Of a DNA stretch of 64,000 nt, positions 59,454-64,000 are shown piece after piece. This stretch comes from a virus (Duplodnaviria; Caudoviricetes): IMG/VR virus record IMGVR_UViG_3300031555_003626, positions 96,001 through 160,000 of that record. One strand, written 5' to 3'. The notes beneath the pieces are model-generated. The model saw only the letters and a list, made by a program, of their open reading frames with translations, was not told the origin of the DNA and did no database searches. Position numbers and translations under genes: made by a program. Each line of letters begins with the position of its first letter. Position 1 is the first letter of the stretch.

Positions 59454-59994
59454 AGTCGAGAGTTATTTTTCTTGACTATGATTAGATGGGGTTGTCAATA
59501 CTCCCATGTGGAATGAGAAAGGCACCAGCTGTAGATACAACTGGCCGAGCGACGGAAAAGTAAATAACTTCCAGGCCGTTCAGTGGGTTTCAGAGGCCTG
59601 CAAGAAGTTTCATTATGATATCGTAGTTACTTCTACTTGGCGCCGTCATGATAACTACAAGGAATGCCTTATTAATGGTGGTCTTAGAGAAGGTATTGAA
59701 ATTCTTGGTAAAACGGAGCACCTCGAGGTTCCTGAGGGATGGTCTCGTGGTCATGAGATCCAGAAGTATCTTGATGAACATCCCGAAATTAATTACTTTA
59801 TGATTCTTGACGACGAAAATGTTCCTATTAATGAAGTACAGAGAGAGCATTTTATTCAGGCTGTAGATGCTCATGGAGGCTTCAATGAGGCAGATTTCTT
59901 TACTTTTGAAAAGAAATACATGAAAGACCTTGGTCACGGCGGATCTTTCTGGGACCGTAAACATAAAGATTATAGGAAGGAAATTATAGAATGA
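59450..59994 (+). pseudogene. HAD phosphatase (Swiss-Army-Knife RNA-repair type) disrupted by a 5-nt insertion
   Basis: MKSRVIFLDYD-stop; removing TAGAT 59483-59487 restores FLDYDGVVN in frame with VTSTWR, RGHEI, ILDD. Confidence 0.75.
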
Positions 59995-61541
59995 GAACGA
60001 TAGATACTCTATTGACAGATTTTAATGATATTTGTACCTTGTATAGATACCTTTACATGTCTGAAGATCATTTTATTGACGTTGAAACACCGGCTACTAC
60101 TTTGAGAATTACTATGACCGAGCAGCTTAATTTTAAATGTCAAAATCTTAACTTTCCTGACCTTCCGCCAATGGGATATAATGATATGATGACTCTTAAC
60201 CAGTCATTGGGAATTATTGACCAGCTTAAGCATAAGCCCGGTATTATGAATTTCCGTGAGGGTGCTTCTCGCTGGGACGAAATTTTTGATATTACTAACG
60301 CTAATTTGGCTCTAAATAGAGATCATAAGAAGAGGTATGCTACTGTATGATTACAAAAGAACAGGCGATTGATATTATAGCTAAGTTTGATTTTTTCTAC
60401 GGCCAGCGGGCAGGAAGAGAGCTTTGGTTCGATAAGTCGAGAGAAGTACAGGATGCGGATGTAAAAAATTTCAGCGATGATTGTGTAAGACTGCTTGAGT
60501 ATATTATGAAGACGGAGGCGCCTAATGTATAATCCTTTTGATCATTGGAAAGAACTAAAGTGTACAAAGTGTATACATGCAGAGCTTTGTATGCAAAATA
60601 GAGGCGGAGCCGACCTTGATATTGCTGCTGATAACTGCAGACATTTTAAAGATGCTTCTACTATTATTGAGCTACCTAAGAAATTTTGGCTTGTTTTCAA
60701 TGTTCCAGGTTTTTATAATATTACAGAGTATGATGTAGAACGAATCAGCATTGCCAACGGAGTAATTGATAAAATGTGGGGCTCAAACAAAACTTCGAAA
60801 GAAGTAGTATATAAAGAGCATTTTGGTAGCCTAGTTTTCTTTTCAGAGGAGGCTGCTAAGCTTGGTTTAGAAAAACTTATTGAGGAGTATCGTAATGAAG
60901 AAGCTTAATATTAAAAATTTGACTATTAATCTTGCAGATAATGTGCAAAGGGAAGACTGGGAAAATGCTGTTTATCACGCCTTTGAATCAGTATCTTCTG
61001 ACGCAGAATTTATTAACTTGGTTAAAGTCAAGTTGCCAAATGTTCCAATGGATAAAGCTCATTTTATTTTTCGACAACTAAAAGAAGCCTTCACTGAGCA
61101 GGGATTGACTAATTGTGTATTTGTGCCTATTCACCCACAGGGCATTCGTGATATTTCAATAGAAAGAATTGAATTAGATAATAAAGAGGAATGTAAAGTT
61201 ATAACCCAAGACATTTTTACTGATACTCCAGCCATGACTAAAACTACTGTTTCTGGAGGTTGGTAATGAAACATAAATGTTATATTTATAATAAAGGTTT
61301 TGAAGCAATGAAGAATAATGTCTGTGACACTTCTTGCGGCCTTTGTCCTGCACCAATGAATGCTCAGGAAGCTCTAGATATACTTACTAGTTATCTTCTG
61401 GGCGATGATTGGTATATTGCCATATCAGTAAATACTGAGCAGTGTAATGCGATTATTACAGAGCAAATTTTAGATAAATTTTCTAAAAAGTGGAAAAAAG
61501 ATTGGAACCACTTTGAAAAATACGATCAAGATACTGTATAA
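59991..61541 (+). other. small hypothetical CDSs
   Basis: 59991-60350, 60347-60532, 60525-60908, 60895-61266, 61266-61541. Confidence 0.75.
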
Positions 61542-61545
61542 TATA

Positions 61546-62395
61546 ATATCAGGTGCCACGAAGCCCGGGAAACGGATAGCATATAGTTGAAAAAAGTACC
61601 TTGACGTTAATGGGAGCTAAAGCAGCTGTGGTTATGGAGTTAGATGAACAGCCTGATATGTTTAGAGGTGCCCGTTCGCAGACGTGTGTAGCAGCTGACC
61701 GCGAATTAGCTTAGCTACTTTGTAATGGAATTTGAGAAACAGCCTCTAATAGCTGAGTCGAATGACGTTGGGATGTTCCCCGTTCACCTTCGCTTGGGTG
61801 CTCAGCAACAAGCAATTTATGAATTATCCGGACCTCCGGCGGTTATGCGGCAGAAGCTGCCACCGCACTGGGCAATAGGCCCTGGCTTGATATACCCGAG
61901 CTTCCGGAAGGGGTTATTAAAGCAAGTACGCCAATAGCAGAGAGCGATTCGAGTAAAAATCGATGTGGTGTAGGTAAGAGTCCTACCTTGCTGTAAATTT
62001 AATAGTAGGTGCTACGAAGAGCCCTTAAGCCGTTAGCCGTAAAGCAGTGGAGTATACGTTTACTGTGAAATTGCTTTTACGTGAATCGGGGTGCTTAACA
62101 GGCCAGTAATTCGTTTGTTAATCGTGTGGTTACTGTGGCGGGGTTGTGCCGAGAGCTGTAGTAAACGGAGTTAGAAGAACGGCCTACAAAATATTTTAAA
62201 TGTCTGAAAAGTTATAAGCTTCTTATCGATTGCAGTCCTAAAGACTTAATAAAGAAGTAGGCGTGCTTAATGGAGTTAACTAAAATCGTCGCACTCTTGC
62301 CGAGTAATTAACGGTGCTAGGTGGGTAGCTGAAATGTCCACAAACGCAATCCAGACAATAATGCAAAACGCTGACTAAGACGTTAGTTCAGCGCT
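61546..62395 (+). ncRNA. large structured noncoding RNA (~850 nt), family unassigned
   Basis: class II motif 61532-61542 upstream, terminator-like hairpin downstream, no RBS-led ORF, higher GC, many nested helices. Confidence 0.75.
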
Positions 62396-62425
62396 AGGGG
62401 CGCTGAGATAAAGGCGCCCTTTCTT
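62396..62425 (+). terminator. terminator-like hairpin
   Basis: GGGCGC-N10-GCGCCC then TTTCTT. Confidence 0.55.
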
Positions 62426-62429
62426 ATAT

Positions 62430-62573
62430 CCACAATTGGCGGAACAGGCAACACAAATGTAAGTCCTGACTGTAGGCAGCCGGTGTAAGTCCTACTGGTG
62501 TAGACGCACCGCGGAGTAGCGGCGATACACTGACGAGTGTATCATCTGGGTTCGAATCCCGGGTTGTGGACCA
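62430..62573 (+). tRNA. atypical class II (Leu-like) tRNA-like RNA
   Basis: acceptor CCACAAT/GTTGTGG, A73, encoded CCA; T arm CTGGG-TTCGAAT-CCCGG; 7-bp variable arm; ~50-nt D-loop insert; 6-nt anticodon loop. Confidence 0.75.
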
Positions 62574-62597: not shown

Positions 62598-63152
62598 ATG
62601 GTTATCGGAATTGATTTTGATGGCGTAATGAACCGTATGTTAGAGACTTGGCTAGAGTGGCTTAATATGCGACACGGCTTAACAGTAAAGTTTAAAGACG
62701 TAAAAAATTGGGAACTTGAAAAATGTTATCCGACACTTACAAAAGATGAACTGTATGCTCCATTACACTTCACAGATTTTTGGTCTGAAGTAAAGATTCA
62801 GGAAAATGCACCCGAGGTAATTGAAAGACTTATTCAAGAGGGCCATCAAGTTTATGTAATTACAAGTACTCACTACGATATAATTTCAGCTAAGTTTAAG
62901 AATTGTCTTCTTAAGCATTTTCCTTTTATAAAGAAAGAAAATATAATTATTACATATAATAAATCGCTTATCAGATGTGACCTTTTACTTGACGACGCAG
63001 AGCATAATTTAATAAATTTTAAAGGTATTAAAGTAGTTTTTGATGCACCTTATAATAAAAATACTTCCGTAGCAGATTTTAGAGTATGTTCTTGGGAAGA
63101 CTTTTATGAACTAATTTCTGAGCTAAAAACTGCTATTACTAATATTGTATAA
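62598..63152 (+). CDS. 5'(3')-deoxyribonucleotidase (NT5C, HAD family)
   Basis: GIDFDGVM, ITS, K, LLDD, FDAPYN. Confidence 0.88.
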   Translation: MVIGIDFDGVMNRMLETWLEWLNMRHGLTVKFKDVKNWELEKCYPTLTKDELYAPLHFTDFWSEVKIQENAPEVIERLIQEGHQVYVITSTHYDIISAKFKNCLLKHFPFIKKENIIITYNKSLIRCDLLLDDAEHNLINFKGIKVVFDAPYNKNTSVADFRVCSWEDFYELISELKTAITNIV

Positions 63153-63187: not shown

Positions 63188-63631
63188 ATGAGAACTAAGA
63201 AGTACTGGCAGAATCTTAGTGAACAACACTATAAAAGCCTGCAAGAATCGCGTAATCTAAATGACCTTAAAGATCAGGCTCTTAAATTTTTGCTTGAGAG
63301 TCCGGAGACCTATAGGGTTAAACTTACAGGGGATGTTCAAGCTATCTATACTGCCCCATACTCAAAGCAGATTACAAAATTTGAGTACGTAGACGGCAAA
63401 GGTAAGTATCATAGACACTTTAGACCTATAGCTATTGACAAGCTAGAAATTATCAGTACAAATGCCGATACAGCTGTCATGAGATTTGAAACTCTTACAG
63501 ATAAATATACTTATTGGATTCTAAACAAAGCTGACGAGACCATTGCAGAAATTCCTGAGGATTACTTCTGTACTAATCATAGAGGCAATTTTAAAACTTG
63601 TGAAATCAAAGGAGGAGAAGATAATGGGTAA
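63188..63631 (+). CDS. hypothetical protein
   Basis: AAGGAG RBS, class II motif at 63143. Confidence 0.75.
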   Translation: MRTKKYWQNLSEQHYKSLQESRNLNDLKDQALKFLLESPETYRVKLTGDVQAIYTAPYSKQITKFEYVDGKGKYHRHFRPIAIDKLEIISTNADTAVMRFETLTDKYTYWILNKADETIAEIPEDYFCTNHRGNFKTCEIKGGEDNG

Positions 63632-64000
63632 TAATAAAAAAGATTCACTTGGCGACCGTATGAAAGCTAATTATGAAAATAGATCTAAGACTTTCTTGAC
63701 TCGTCGCACACCTTGTATTATTCGTCTTGACGGAAAAGCTTTTCATAGCTTCACAAGGAATTTCCAAAAGCCATATGATGAGGTTTTTCATAAGGCAATG
63801 AACTCTACCTTGCAGTATCTTTGTAAAAATATTCAAGGGTGTAAGTTTGGATACACACAGAGCGACGAAATTTCGCTTCTGTTGACCGATTACGATACTC
63901 TGACTACTGATGCTTTCTTTGATTACAACGTGCAAAAGGTATGCTCTATTGCAGCTTCTATGGCTACCTTGCAGTTCAATAAAGCTTTCAGAACATATGT
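63624..64000 (+). CDS. thg1: tRNA-His guanylyltransferase / Thg1-like protein (runs off the window end)
   Basis: hand translation: LGDRMK.YE...IIRLDGKAFHSFT...KPYD...GYTQSDEISL. Confidence 0.92.
   Translation, partial: MGNNKKDSLGDRMKANYENRSKTFLTRRTPCIIRLDGKAFHSFTRNFQKPYDEVFHKAMNSTLQYLCKNIQGCKFGYTQSDEISLLLTDYDTLTTDAFFDYNVQKVCSIAASMATLQFNKAFRTY

What the first reader, a model, noticed from the sequence alone, without database searches (positions are those of the whole stretch)
62430..62573. tRNA-like RNA with ~50-nt D-loop insertion and non-canonical anticodon loop
Seen: intact acceptor stem, A73, encoded CCA, canonical T arm, 7-bp variable arm GATACAC/GTGTATC, and the Leu-type D-arm halves TGGCGGAA...TAGACGC. 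Between the halves lies an insert with a TGTAAGTCCT direct repeat (62458, 62484) and hairpins CAGG/CCTG and CCGGT/ACTGG. The anticodon arm is 4 bp around a 6-nt loop GGAGTA with no U33. Known: bacterial LeuRS relies on A73 and overall shape rather than the anticodon. Inference: stems are preserved while decoding features are lost. That fits a chargeable but non-decoding RNA, such as a decoy for tRNA-targeting defences, a processing signal, or a tRNA with a novel removable intron, better than simple decay.
Basis: partly seen in the sequence, partly recalled or inferred. Interest (0 to 1): 0.72.

Follow-up and report, generated by a model that had tools for sequence, protein, structure and literature searches.

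The report
Non-decoding tRNA mimic in gut phages
A small group of large gut phages keeps an RNA that folds like a leucine tRNA but carries one or two extra hairpins in its D-loop and has no usable anticodon, so it is a conserved tRNA look-alike kept for something other than reading codons; what it does is still unknown.

Summary
Window 62430-62573 (+) folds as a class-II, Leu-type cloverleaf with encoded CCA. It carries a ~50-nt D-loop insert and a 4-bp "anticodon" stem with a 6-nt loop.

It is neither decay nor an assembly artefact. I found 9 distinct variants in related 220-233-kb gut or faecal phages and metagenome contigs. In these, 99% of the proposed pairs hold and 10 pairs show compensatory changes.

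- **The insert:** it is one or two copies of a conserved hairpin (AGG-CAR...GUAAGU-CCU). It was built partly from the old tRNA-Leu D-loop sequence TAGGCAG.
- **Anticodon loop and discriminator:** the loop is the least conserved loop, and one variant has 7 nt. The discriminator is A only in this window and G in the other eight. Conserved Leu charging is therefore doubtful.
- **Context:** the RNA always lies about 880 nt downstream of a strong promoter-like site, behind a long non-coding region. It sits 8 nt after a covarying hairpin and 24 nt before an NT5C-Thg1-HD-phosphoesterase gene row.

Best reading: a non-decoding tRNA mimic cut out by host tRNA-processing enzymes. It probably serves as a binding decoy or handle, as a processing mark, or as both. 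Expression, processing and function are untested.

It is a new variant of a known kind. Another reader of this scan flagged the same stretch.

The parts
62430..62573 (+). tRNA-like RNA, 144 nt, class-II (Leu-derived) cloverleaf with encoded CCA
   Evidence: Sequence. Deletion scan. CM R1 scores 175 bits here and 105-174 bits in 8 homologues. Covariation.
62430..62436 (+). Acceptor stem, 5' strand. It pairs with 62563-62569. C1-G72 is invariant.
   Evidence: 7 of 7 pairs are kept in 9 variants and 2 pairs change on both sides.
62439..62441 (+). D-stem 5' strand GCG, pairing with CGC at 62505-62507. TGGCGGAA is identical to the D-arm start of the phage's own tRNA-Leu(UAA).
   Evidence: Invariant in 9 variants. 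Comparison with the phage's own tRNAs.
62445..62468 (+). D-loop hairpin 1 (CAGG ... UGUAAGU CCUG). Present in 8 of 9 variants and absent from the L002 type.
   Evidence: Alignments A2 and A3.
62472..62495 (+). D-loop hairpin 2 (GTAGG CAG...GUAAGU CCTAC), present in all variants. Its 5' strand reuses the old tRNA-Leu D-loop TAGGCAG.
   Evidence: The two outer pairs covary: GT/AC, AA/TT, AT/AT. RNAalifold extends the stem by up to 3 pairs. Origin from the D-loop.
62509..62522 (+). Anticodon-arm remnant: 4-bp stem CCGC/GCGG and the 6-nt loop GGAGTA
   Evidence: 3 of 4 pairs change on both sides. The loop is GGAGTA, GGAGAA or GGAATA in 8 variants and the 7-nt ATGTTTA in L155.
62524..62543 (+). Long variable arm, 7 bp with loop TGACGA. 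Two unpaired bases follow before the T stem, which is the Leu-type spacing.
   Evidence: Spacing compared with the phage's own Leu, Ser and Tyr tRNAs.
62546..62562 (+). T arm with a canonical TTCGAAT loop
62570..62573 (+). Discriminator (A here, G in the 8 other variants) and encoded CCA
62396..62421 (+). Covarying hairpin with a weak U-tract, 8 nt upstream of the tRNA-like 5' end. Base -1 is U in every variant whose upstream flank was read: window, L122, L126 and the L002 type.
   Evidence: Terminator-like call. GGGGCGC/GCGCCC changes to GGGGTGC/GCACCCC in L126.
61513..61542 (+). Promoter-like site TTGAAA-18-TATAAT, the only good one upstream. It would start the ~870-nt non-coding RNA that runs into the tRNA-like RNA.
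   Evidence: 11 of 12 matches. A similar site lies at the equivalent distance in L126.
61549..62395 (+). Long non-coding, GC-richer region with repeated AGGTGC...GAACRGCCT modules, probably co-transcribed with the tRNA-like RNA
   Evidence: The only ORF of 40 aa or more is a 70-aa frame at 61725-61937 with no Pfam match. GC is 44-50% against about 35% nearby. Repeats. Patchy conservation.
62598..63152 (+). NT5C-type 5'(3')-deoxyribonucleotidase gene, starting 24 nt after the CCA
   Evidence: Pfam PF06941, E 1.7e-32.
63624..64000 (+). Thg1-like (tRNA-His guanylyltransferase family) gene. It runs past the window end and is followed by HD and metallophosphatase genes.
   Evidence: Pfam PF04446. 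PHROG 4717.

Best explanation
This is a conserved, non-decoding tRNA mimic derived from a phage tRNA-Leu gene.

**Shown:**
- It keeps every helix of a class-II tRNA.
- It keeps bases that match, by my own numbering, those that build the L-shape: U8, A14, A15/U48, G53, the T-loop and C61.
- It keeps a 12-bp acceptor/T stack, U at -1 and an encoded CCA.
- One or two copies of a conserved hairpin sit in the variable part of the D-loop.
- The anticodon arm is reduced to a short stem with a 6-nt loop.

**Inferred:**
- It is transcribed as the tail of an ~870-nt non-coding RNA, from the promoter-like site at 61513-61542.
- It is released by host RNase P at its 5' end and by ordinary 3' trimming.
- That release also fixes the 3' end of the upstream RNA and the 5' end of the NT5C-Thg1 message.
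- The freed 144-nt RNA then acts through its upper half, meaning the elbow, D-loop hairpins, long variable arm and CCA end. It would work as a competitive binder (decoy or handle) for a factor that recognises class-II tRNA bodies.
- It does not act on the ribosome.
For: - **Fold and covariation:** 9 distinct variants, 99% of pair cells paired, 10 pairs with changes on both sides, 0 of 500 shuffles as high, and slid controls at 30-46%. RNAalifold gives an independent consensus.
- **Layout:** removing the D-loop insert gives the best tRNA score.
- **Origin:** the D-arm matches the phage's own tRNA-Leu(UAA), TGGCGGAATAGGCAGACGC. The Leu-type 2-nt spacer follows the variable arm. The next-best CM hits are tRNA-Leu genes.
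- **Conservation pattern:** the hairpin motif and the variable-arm loop are nearly invariant, while the 'anticodon' loop varies in sequence and length. The RNA is the best-conserved block of the whole intergenic region.
- **Transcription context:** there is no promoter-like site next to it. One strong site lies ~880 nt upstream, and one lies at the same place in L126. The L002 type has no terminator there and carries a second mini tRNA-like element instead.
- **Processing features:** U(-1) in the four variant types whose upstream flank was read, and CCA in all nine.
- **Neighbourhood:** a Tad8-like anti-defence gene, an RNA-repair HAD_SAK_2 domain, Thg1, HD and a phosphoesterase.
- **Precedent:** some defences recognise or cut the long variable arm of class-II tRNAs, and phage tRNAs can act as a decoy or supplement (PMC13096335, PMC11541572).
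Against: - There is no expression or end-mapping evidence for the RNA itself.
- The hairpin 8 nt upstream could be a real terminator. The tRNA-like RNA would then need read-through or an unseen promoter.
- No binding partner is identified, and the hairpin motif occurs nowhere else in the genome.
- One variant (L155) has a 7-nt loop with U33. Some lineages might therefore still decode.
- All homologues come from one narrow phage clade, so the covariation rests on few independent events.
Confidence: 0.5

Rival explanations
1. Pure processing mark, working like mascRNA at the end of MALAT1. The tRNA shape exists only so that RNase P and 3' trimming cut the long precursor. This gives the upstream non-coding RNA a defined, hairpin-protected 3' end and frees the NT5C-Thg1 message. 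The released tRNA-like piece has no job of its own.
For: - It lies exactly between an ~870-nt non-coding region and the first gene, with no promoter of its own.
- A covarying hairpin lies just upstream.
- In the L002 type a second minimal acceptor/T-arm element sits at the same junction.
- First-reader notes on the same genome report several other RNAs with tRNA-type ends. I did not check these.
Against: - A cutting signal needs only the acceptor/T minihelix and the elbow.
- Here the anticodon-arm stem, the 7-bp variable arm and the loop sequences of the D-loop hairpins are also kept.
- The hairpin unit is present twice in 8 of 9 variants.
Confidence: 0.27
2. Cis-acting leader or dedicated substrate of the downstream Thg1/HD/phosphoesterase RNA-repair genes. 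Examples would be an RNA whose 5' end is rebuilt by the Thg1-like enzyme, or one that controls the operon.
For: - It is 24 nt from the NT5C start, and Thg1 lies two genes on, in all relatives that carry it.
- U(-1) can pair with A73 or G73. This gives an 8-bp stem like that of tRNA-His (idea from note e1-5657782).
Against: - A more distant phage with a 47%-identical Thg1 has no such RNA.
- The RNA has no His-type anticodon or C73.
- U-1 is also simply the base RNase P prefers (established knowledge).
Confidence: 0.1
3. A real decoding tRNA. Either the D-loop insert is spliced out, or the anticodon lies elsewhere, as in ARAGORN's intron mode, which calls tRNA-Arg(CCT) with a 47-nt anticodon-loop intron.
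For: - ARAGORN -i reports Arg(CCT) i(39,47).
- With the insert removed, the L155 variant is called Asn(GTT) with score 119.2.
- The phage does carry split tRNAs elsewhere.
Against: - The Arg model scores lowest (101.8) and has mismatched D and anticodon stems.
- It uses hairpin 1, which the L002 type lacks.
- In 8 of 9 variants no deletion restores a 7-nt loop with U33.
- The insert has no CCA-ended tRNA shape, and Rfam finds no group I intron core.
- The Asn(GTT) call in L155 sits on a Leu-type body, which does not fit an Asn tRNA.
Confidence: 0.05
4. A decaying tRNA-Leu pseudogene, or an assembly artefact.
For: The D-loop is disrupted, the anticodon loop is short, and standard tools fail on it.
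Against: - Compensatory changes occur in five of the seven helices.
- The insert motif is conserved.
- The same architecture appears in independent assemblies and in DNA runs of several studies.
Confidence: 0.03

Closest known systems
Bacterial or phage class-II tRNA-Leu (closest relative: this phage's own tRNA-Leu(UAA) at genome 189586-189740)
   Same: - Same D-arm sequence, with TGGCGGAA, AGGCAG and ACGC shared.
- Same 3-bp D-stem, A15/U48 and long variable arm followed by 2 unpaired bases.
- Canonical T arm and encoded CCA.
   Different: - One or two extra hairpins in the D-loop.
- A 4-bp stem with a 6-nt loop in place of the anticodon arm.
- A variable arm lengthened to 7 bp.
- C1-G72, and G73 in most variants.
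- Not found by ARAGORN in default mode or by Rfam.
mascRNA / MALAT1 and MEN-beta tRNA-like 3' elements of mammals (from my own knowledge)
   Same: - A tRNA-shaped RNA at the end of a long non-coding RNA.
- A degenerate anticodon arm.
- A proposed RNase P cut that matures the upstream RNA.
   Different: - Here the CCA is encoded and the body is class II with D-loop hairpins.
- A coding operon follows directly.
- The host is a bacterium, and no cleavage has been shown.
tRNA-shaped inserts in the anticodon of three tRNAs of this same phage, and the 'enigmatic' tRNA introns of Lak megaphages (PMC6784885)
   Same: - Same genome and the same general theme of tRNA-derived non-decoding modules.
- They rely on acceptor/T-arm shape and CCA.
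   Different: - Those are small CCA-ended minihelices nested inside the anticodon loop of otherwise normal tRNAs.
- Here the outer molecule is the non-decoder, and the insert is a plain hairpin in the D-loop with no acceptor stem or CCA.
Phage tRNAs that counter tRNA-targeting defences, such as T5/T6 tRNA-Tyr against retron-Eco7/Septu, which cut the variable arm (PMC13096335, PMC10264068)
   Same: - A phage-encoded class-II tRNA body with an altered loop or arm.
- It lies beside anti-defence and RNA-repair genes.
   Different: - Those tRNAs still decode and replace the lost host tRNA.
- This RNA cannot decode in most variants, so it could only act as a sponge. No defence has been linked to it.
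tRNA-like domain of bacterial Y RNAs (YrlA) and the T4 stable RNAs 'species 1/2' (from my own knowledge, not checked here)
   Same: Non-decoding RNAs with tRNA-like parts, encoded near tRNA genes or in phages.
   Different: - YrlA has a closed, permuted acceptor and a Ro-binding stem.
- No sequence or model match was found here.

Membership tests
Canonical decoding tRNA (Rfam RF00005, ARAGORN model) | 7-bp acceptor stem, 5-bp T stem with a T-loop, discriminator and CCA | tested here: met
Canonical decoding tRNA (Rfam RF00005, ARAGORN model) | 5-bp anticodon stem with a 7-nt loop, U33 and a readable anticodon | tested here: not met
   4-bp stem and a 6-nt loop without U33 in 8 of 9 variants. 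Only L155 has a 7-nt loop.
Canonical decoding tRNA (Rfam RF00005, ARAGORN model) | D-loop of normal size, and detection by standard finders | tested here: not met
   The D-loop holds a 25-50-nt insert. ARAGORN in default mode finds 0 genes, and Rfam has no hit even at E 10.
Bacterial tRNA-Leu (LeuRS substrate) | Discriminator A73 | tested here: not met
   A in the window only, G in 8 other variants.
Bacterial tRNA-Leu (LeuRS substrate) | Leu-type D-arm and variable-arm geometry | tested here: met
   Match to the phage's own tRNA-Leu genes, and a 2-nt spacer before the T stem.
Bacterial tRNA-Leu (LeuRS substrate) | Aminoacylation by LeuRS | not testable with these tools
   Needs a charging assay.
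Intron-containing tRNA (group I, bulge-helix-bulge, or this phage's CCA-ended nested inserts) | Removing the insert restores a normal tRNA, and the insert carries the marks of its class | tested here: not met
   - The deletion scan never restores an anticodon loop.
- No Rfam intron hit of any weight.
- The insert has no acceptor stem or CCA.
RNase P-dependent tRNA-like processing element (mascRNA type) | tRNA-like fold directly downstream of a long non-coding RNA, with no promoter of its own | tested here: met
   Consensus scans only.
RNase P-dependent tRNA-like processing element (mascRNA type) | Cleavage by RNase P at the 5' end in vivo or in vitro | not testable with these tools
   Only contigs were available from the RNA libraries, and none covers the RNA.
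tmRNA | Tag reading frame, G3-U70 and pseudoknots | tested here: not met
   ARAGORN run with its tmRNA mode on whole genome: none (the intron switch is ignored in that mode). Position 3-70 is A-U.

The most novel reading that the evidence does not exclude
The RNA is a dedicated, non-decoding class-II tRNA decoy. It is released by RNase P and presents a tRNA elbow, a lengthened variable arm, a CCA end and extra D-loop hairpins. These soak up a host factor that attacks or senses class-II tRNAs, for example a nuclease that cuts the variable arm or a toxin that modifies the acceptor end. It would work together with the neighbouring Thg1/HD/phosphoesterase repair genes. That would make it an RNA-only anti-defence element shaped like a tRNA.
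Probability: 0.22. Interest if true: 0.8.

Novelty: new variant of a known kind. Interest (0 to 1): 0.6.

Why it matters
Phage tRNAs are now seen as weapons in a conflict over the host's tRNA pool, but the known examples still decode. A conserved phage RNA that keeps the whole tRNA body, drops the anticodon and adds structured hairpins in the D-loop would show that the tRNA shape itself is useful. The shape could serve as a cutting mark, a sponge or a handle.

It also shows that standard tRNA finders miss such genes. This phage carries several other tRNA-derived RNAs. Together they make a good system for asking how phages reuse host tRNA-processing enzymes.

Tried and rejected
- **Public phage records (INPHARED):** blastn with the 1.3-kb region found no match.
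- **Rfam:** no family at gathering scores. At E up to 10 on the window and up to 1 on L002 there were only noise hits. One was a 13.7-bit match of GGUGUAAGUCC to a group II intron piece, which I treat as chance.
- **Pattern scans:**
  - The first loose pattern gave about 118 mostly chance matches.
  - One scan was wasted on a spacer that was one base too short.
  - The corrected pattern found only the contigs already known.
  - In prokaryote genomes the pattern gave 18 matches. None scored with the covariance model, so they are chance.
- **ARAGORN's tRNA-Arg(CCT) intron model:** rejected. It has poor stems and depends on a hairpin that the L002 type lacks.
- **Distant relative:** a phage with a 47%-identical Thg1 has no homologue. 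It has only a tRNA-Leu(UAA) with an unrelated insert.
- **Sequencing runs:** only Logan contigs were on hand.
  - The two RNA-library runs gave contigs on conserved modules of the upstream non-coding region, from relatives, and none on the tRNA-like RNA.
  - This says nothing about expression or ends.
- **Phage-encoded partners:** searches for a CCA enzyme, a class Ia synthetase and a class IIa synthetase core found none.
- **Hairpin motif elsewhere in the genome:** none.
- **Motif classes considered by eye:** I looked at the hairpin as a K-turn, a UAA/GAN motif, a T-loop, and a likeness to RNase P RNA regions. Nothing was firm enough to claim.
- **SerRS or MenT-type recognition:** weakened by the Leu-type 2-nt spacer after the variable arm (PMC11541572).

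Full report
**Where it lies.** The window is bases 96001-160000 of a 233,329-bp virus record that CheckV rates complete. DNA matching the region occurs in animal faeces and bovine gut metagenomes from several studies.

**Checking the observation.**
It has a 7-bp acceptor stem, A73, an encoded CCA and a canonical T arm.
- It also has a 7-bp variable arm and the D-arm halves TGGCGGAA and TAGACGC. The direct repeat TGTAAGTCCT sits at 62458 and 62484.
- The anticodon position holds a 4-bp stem with the 6-nt loop GGAGTA.
- ARAGORN in default mode finds no tRNA in the window. Rfam finds nothing, even at E 10.
- I deleted every possible single segment and rescored with ARAGORN. The best score (114.6) comes from removing 50-52 nt from the D-loop. 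That is comparable with most of the phage's normal tRNAs, which score 101.8-122.8. The model still has only a two-letter 'anticodon'.
- ARAGORN's intron mode offers tRNA-Arg(CCT) with a 47-nt anticodon-loop intron. That model scores 101.8, has mismatched stems, and uses a hairpin that one lineage lacks. I reject it.

**Homologues.**
- Synteny searches with the downstream NT5C and Thg1 proteins found homologues in IMG/VR contigs of 220-221 kb and in fragments. Motif scans then added five metagenome contigs.
- A covariance model built from four sequences scores 105-175 bits on nine distinct variants.
- Across these variants, 99% of pair cells form standard pairs and 10 pairs change on both sides.
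- No shuffle out of 500 reaches the observed values, and slid controls fall to 30-46%.
- RNAalifold predicts the same fold without being given it.
- The same architecture appears in independent assemblies. DNA contigs from separate studies cover the insert. It is not an assembly artefact.
- No homologue exists in about 186,000 prokaryote species genomes or in public phage records.

**Anatomy of the insert.**
- The insert is one copy (L002 type, 119 nt in all) or two copies (the eight others, 144-147 nt) of one hairpin.
- Its stem ends in AGG/CCU. Its loop starts with CAR and ends with GUAAGU. The loop middle is free to vary.
- The two outer pairs of the second hairpin covary: GU/AC, AA/UU and AU/AU.
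- The phage's own tRNA-Leu(UAA) has the D-arm TGGCGGAATAGGCAGACGC. The 5' strand of the hairpin (TAGGCAG) is therefore the old D-loop. New sequence was added behind it and pairs back onto it, and the unit was then duplicated.
- The next-best hits of the model in this and related phages are tRNA-Leu genes.
- The two unpaired bases between the variable arm and the T stem are also Leu-type. The phage's Ser tRNA has one and its Tyr tRNA has three.

**What is and is not conserved.**
- Invariant or nearly so: U8, A14, the D-stem, the hairpin motif, A26, the variable-arm loop (8 of 9), U48, the T-loop, C1-G72 and CCA. U at -1 holds in the four variant types whose upstream flank was read.
- The 'anticodon' stem covaries: CCGC/GCGG, GGUC/GAUC and CCAC/GUGG.
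- Its loop does not hold. It reads GGAGUA, GGAGAA or GGAAUA, and in one metagenome variant (L155) the 7-nt AUGUUUA.
- The discriminator is A only in this window and G elsewhere. A73 is the main Leu identity element in bacteria (established knowledge). The family as a whole is therefore unlikely to be a LeuRS substrate.
- The Leu-type arm geometry also argues against a simple switch to Ser (PMC11541572 shows how this spacing sets arm orientation).
- The phage encodes no class Ia or class IIa synthetase core and no CCA-adding enzyme.

**Surroundings.**
- From 61549 to 62395 the only frame of 40 aa or more is a 70-aa one with no family match. GC content there is 44-50%, against about 35% nearby.
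- A promoter-like site with 11 of 12 matches ends at 61542. A similar site lies at the equivalent distance in L126. No such site lies next to the tRNA-like RNA.
- Eight bases upstream of the RNA is a hairpin that covaries between variants and is followed by a weak U-run.
- In the L002 type that position instead holds a small acceptor/T-arm element without CCA.
- The tRNA-like RNA is the best-conserved block of the whole intergenic region.
- Twenty-four bases after the CCA begins an NT5C nucleotidase gene. It is followed by an unknown gene, a Thg1-like gene, an HD hydrolase and a metallophosphatase.
- Upstream lie a Tad8-like anti-Thoeris gene and a protein with the HAD domain of 'Swiss Army Knife' RNA-repair proteins.

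**How it most likely works.**
- Shown: this is a maintained L-shaped tRNA body with no decoding end.
- Inferred: it is transcribed with the upstream non-coding RNA. RNase P would cut it at its 5' end, since U-1, the 12-bp acceptor/T stack and the CCA all fit a good substrate. Its 3' end would be trimmed in the A/U-rich spacer.
- Selection reaches well beyond the minimal RNase P substrate. It covers the hairpin loops, the long variable arm and the remnant anticodon stem. I therefore think the free RNA has a role of its own.
- That role probably runs through its upper half, by binding a factor that recognises class-II tRNA bodies. It could also serve as a plain processing mark.
- Defences are known that cut or use the long variable arm of class-II tRNAs, and phage tRNAs can blunt them (PMC13096335, PMC11541572). 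No such link is shown here.

**Comparison and novelty.**
- The RNA works like known tRNA mimics, such as mascRNA-type processing elements and phage counter-defence tRNAs.
- It fails the tests for a decoding tRNA, for a Leu-chargeable tRNA as a family, for any intron-bearing tRNA class, and for tmRNA.
- Structured hairpins in the D-loop, on an otherwise intact class-II body without an anticodon, are not described in anything I could find.
- Other first-reader and follow-up notes of this scan report tRNA-shaped inserts, permuted tRNAs and tRNA-capped RNAs in the same genome. I confirmed the three nested inserts myself. The same 144-nt stretch was also flagged by a reader of an overlapping window.

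Noticed in passing
genome 189586-189740, 190811-190947, 191447-191645 (outside the window): Three well-formed tRNAs carry 63-123-nt inserts in the anticodon loop. By eye each insert appears to have a 7-bp acceptor stem (ARAGORN shows only the tRNA fold and prints the insert), then a T arm, a discriminator and CCA. If cut exactly at those ends, two of them would read a different anticodon from the one ARAGORN assigns (UUG instead of UUC, UUU instead of UUG).
   Followed up: partly
window 61549-62395: An ~850-nt non-coding region starts right after a strong promoter-like site. It contains three modules that begin AGGTGC and end GG.(3-6 nt).GA.(1-2 nt).AACRGCCT, with variable interiors. It has no Rfam match. 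Contigs of two metatranscriptome libraries hold the conserved module ends from related phages.
   Followed up: partly
L002 3783-3851: In the L002-type phages the hairpin before the tRNA-like RNA is replaced by a ~69-nt mini tRNA-like element. It has the acceptor GGGTCAT/ATGACCC and a T arm with loop TTCAAAT, and no CCA.
   Followed up: no
window 61260-61541: A 93-aa protein matches Pfam Tad8 (type II Thoeris inhibitor) at E 2.9e-22, directly before the non-coding RNA promoter.
   Followed up: no
window 59506-59994: A 162-aa protein matches the HAD domain of 'Swiss Army Knife' RNA-repair proteins (PF18143, E 2.8e-16). Together with Thg1, HD and the metallophosphatase downstream, the area looks like an RNA-repair neighbourhood.
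   Followed up: no
genome 193678-193763 (outside the window): The phage tRNA-Tyr(GTA) has C1-G72 with A73. From memory, that pair is typical of archaeal and eukaryotic Tyr tRNAs, yet here it sits on a class-II (long variable arm) body.
   Followed up: no
L144 1501-1641: A 190-kb phage with a 47%-identical Thg1 has a tRNA-Leu(UAA) with a ~50-60-nt insert at the 5' edge of the anticodon loop. It has C1-G72 and no encoded CCA. The insert is unrelated to the D-loop insert studied here.
   Followed up: no
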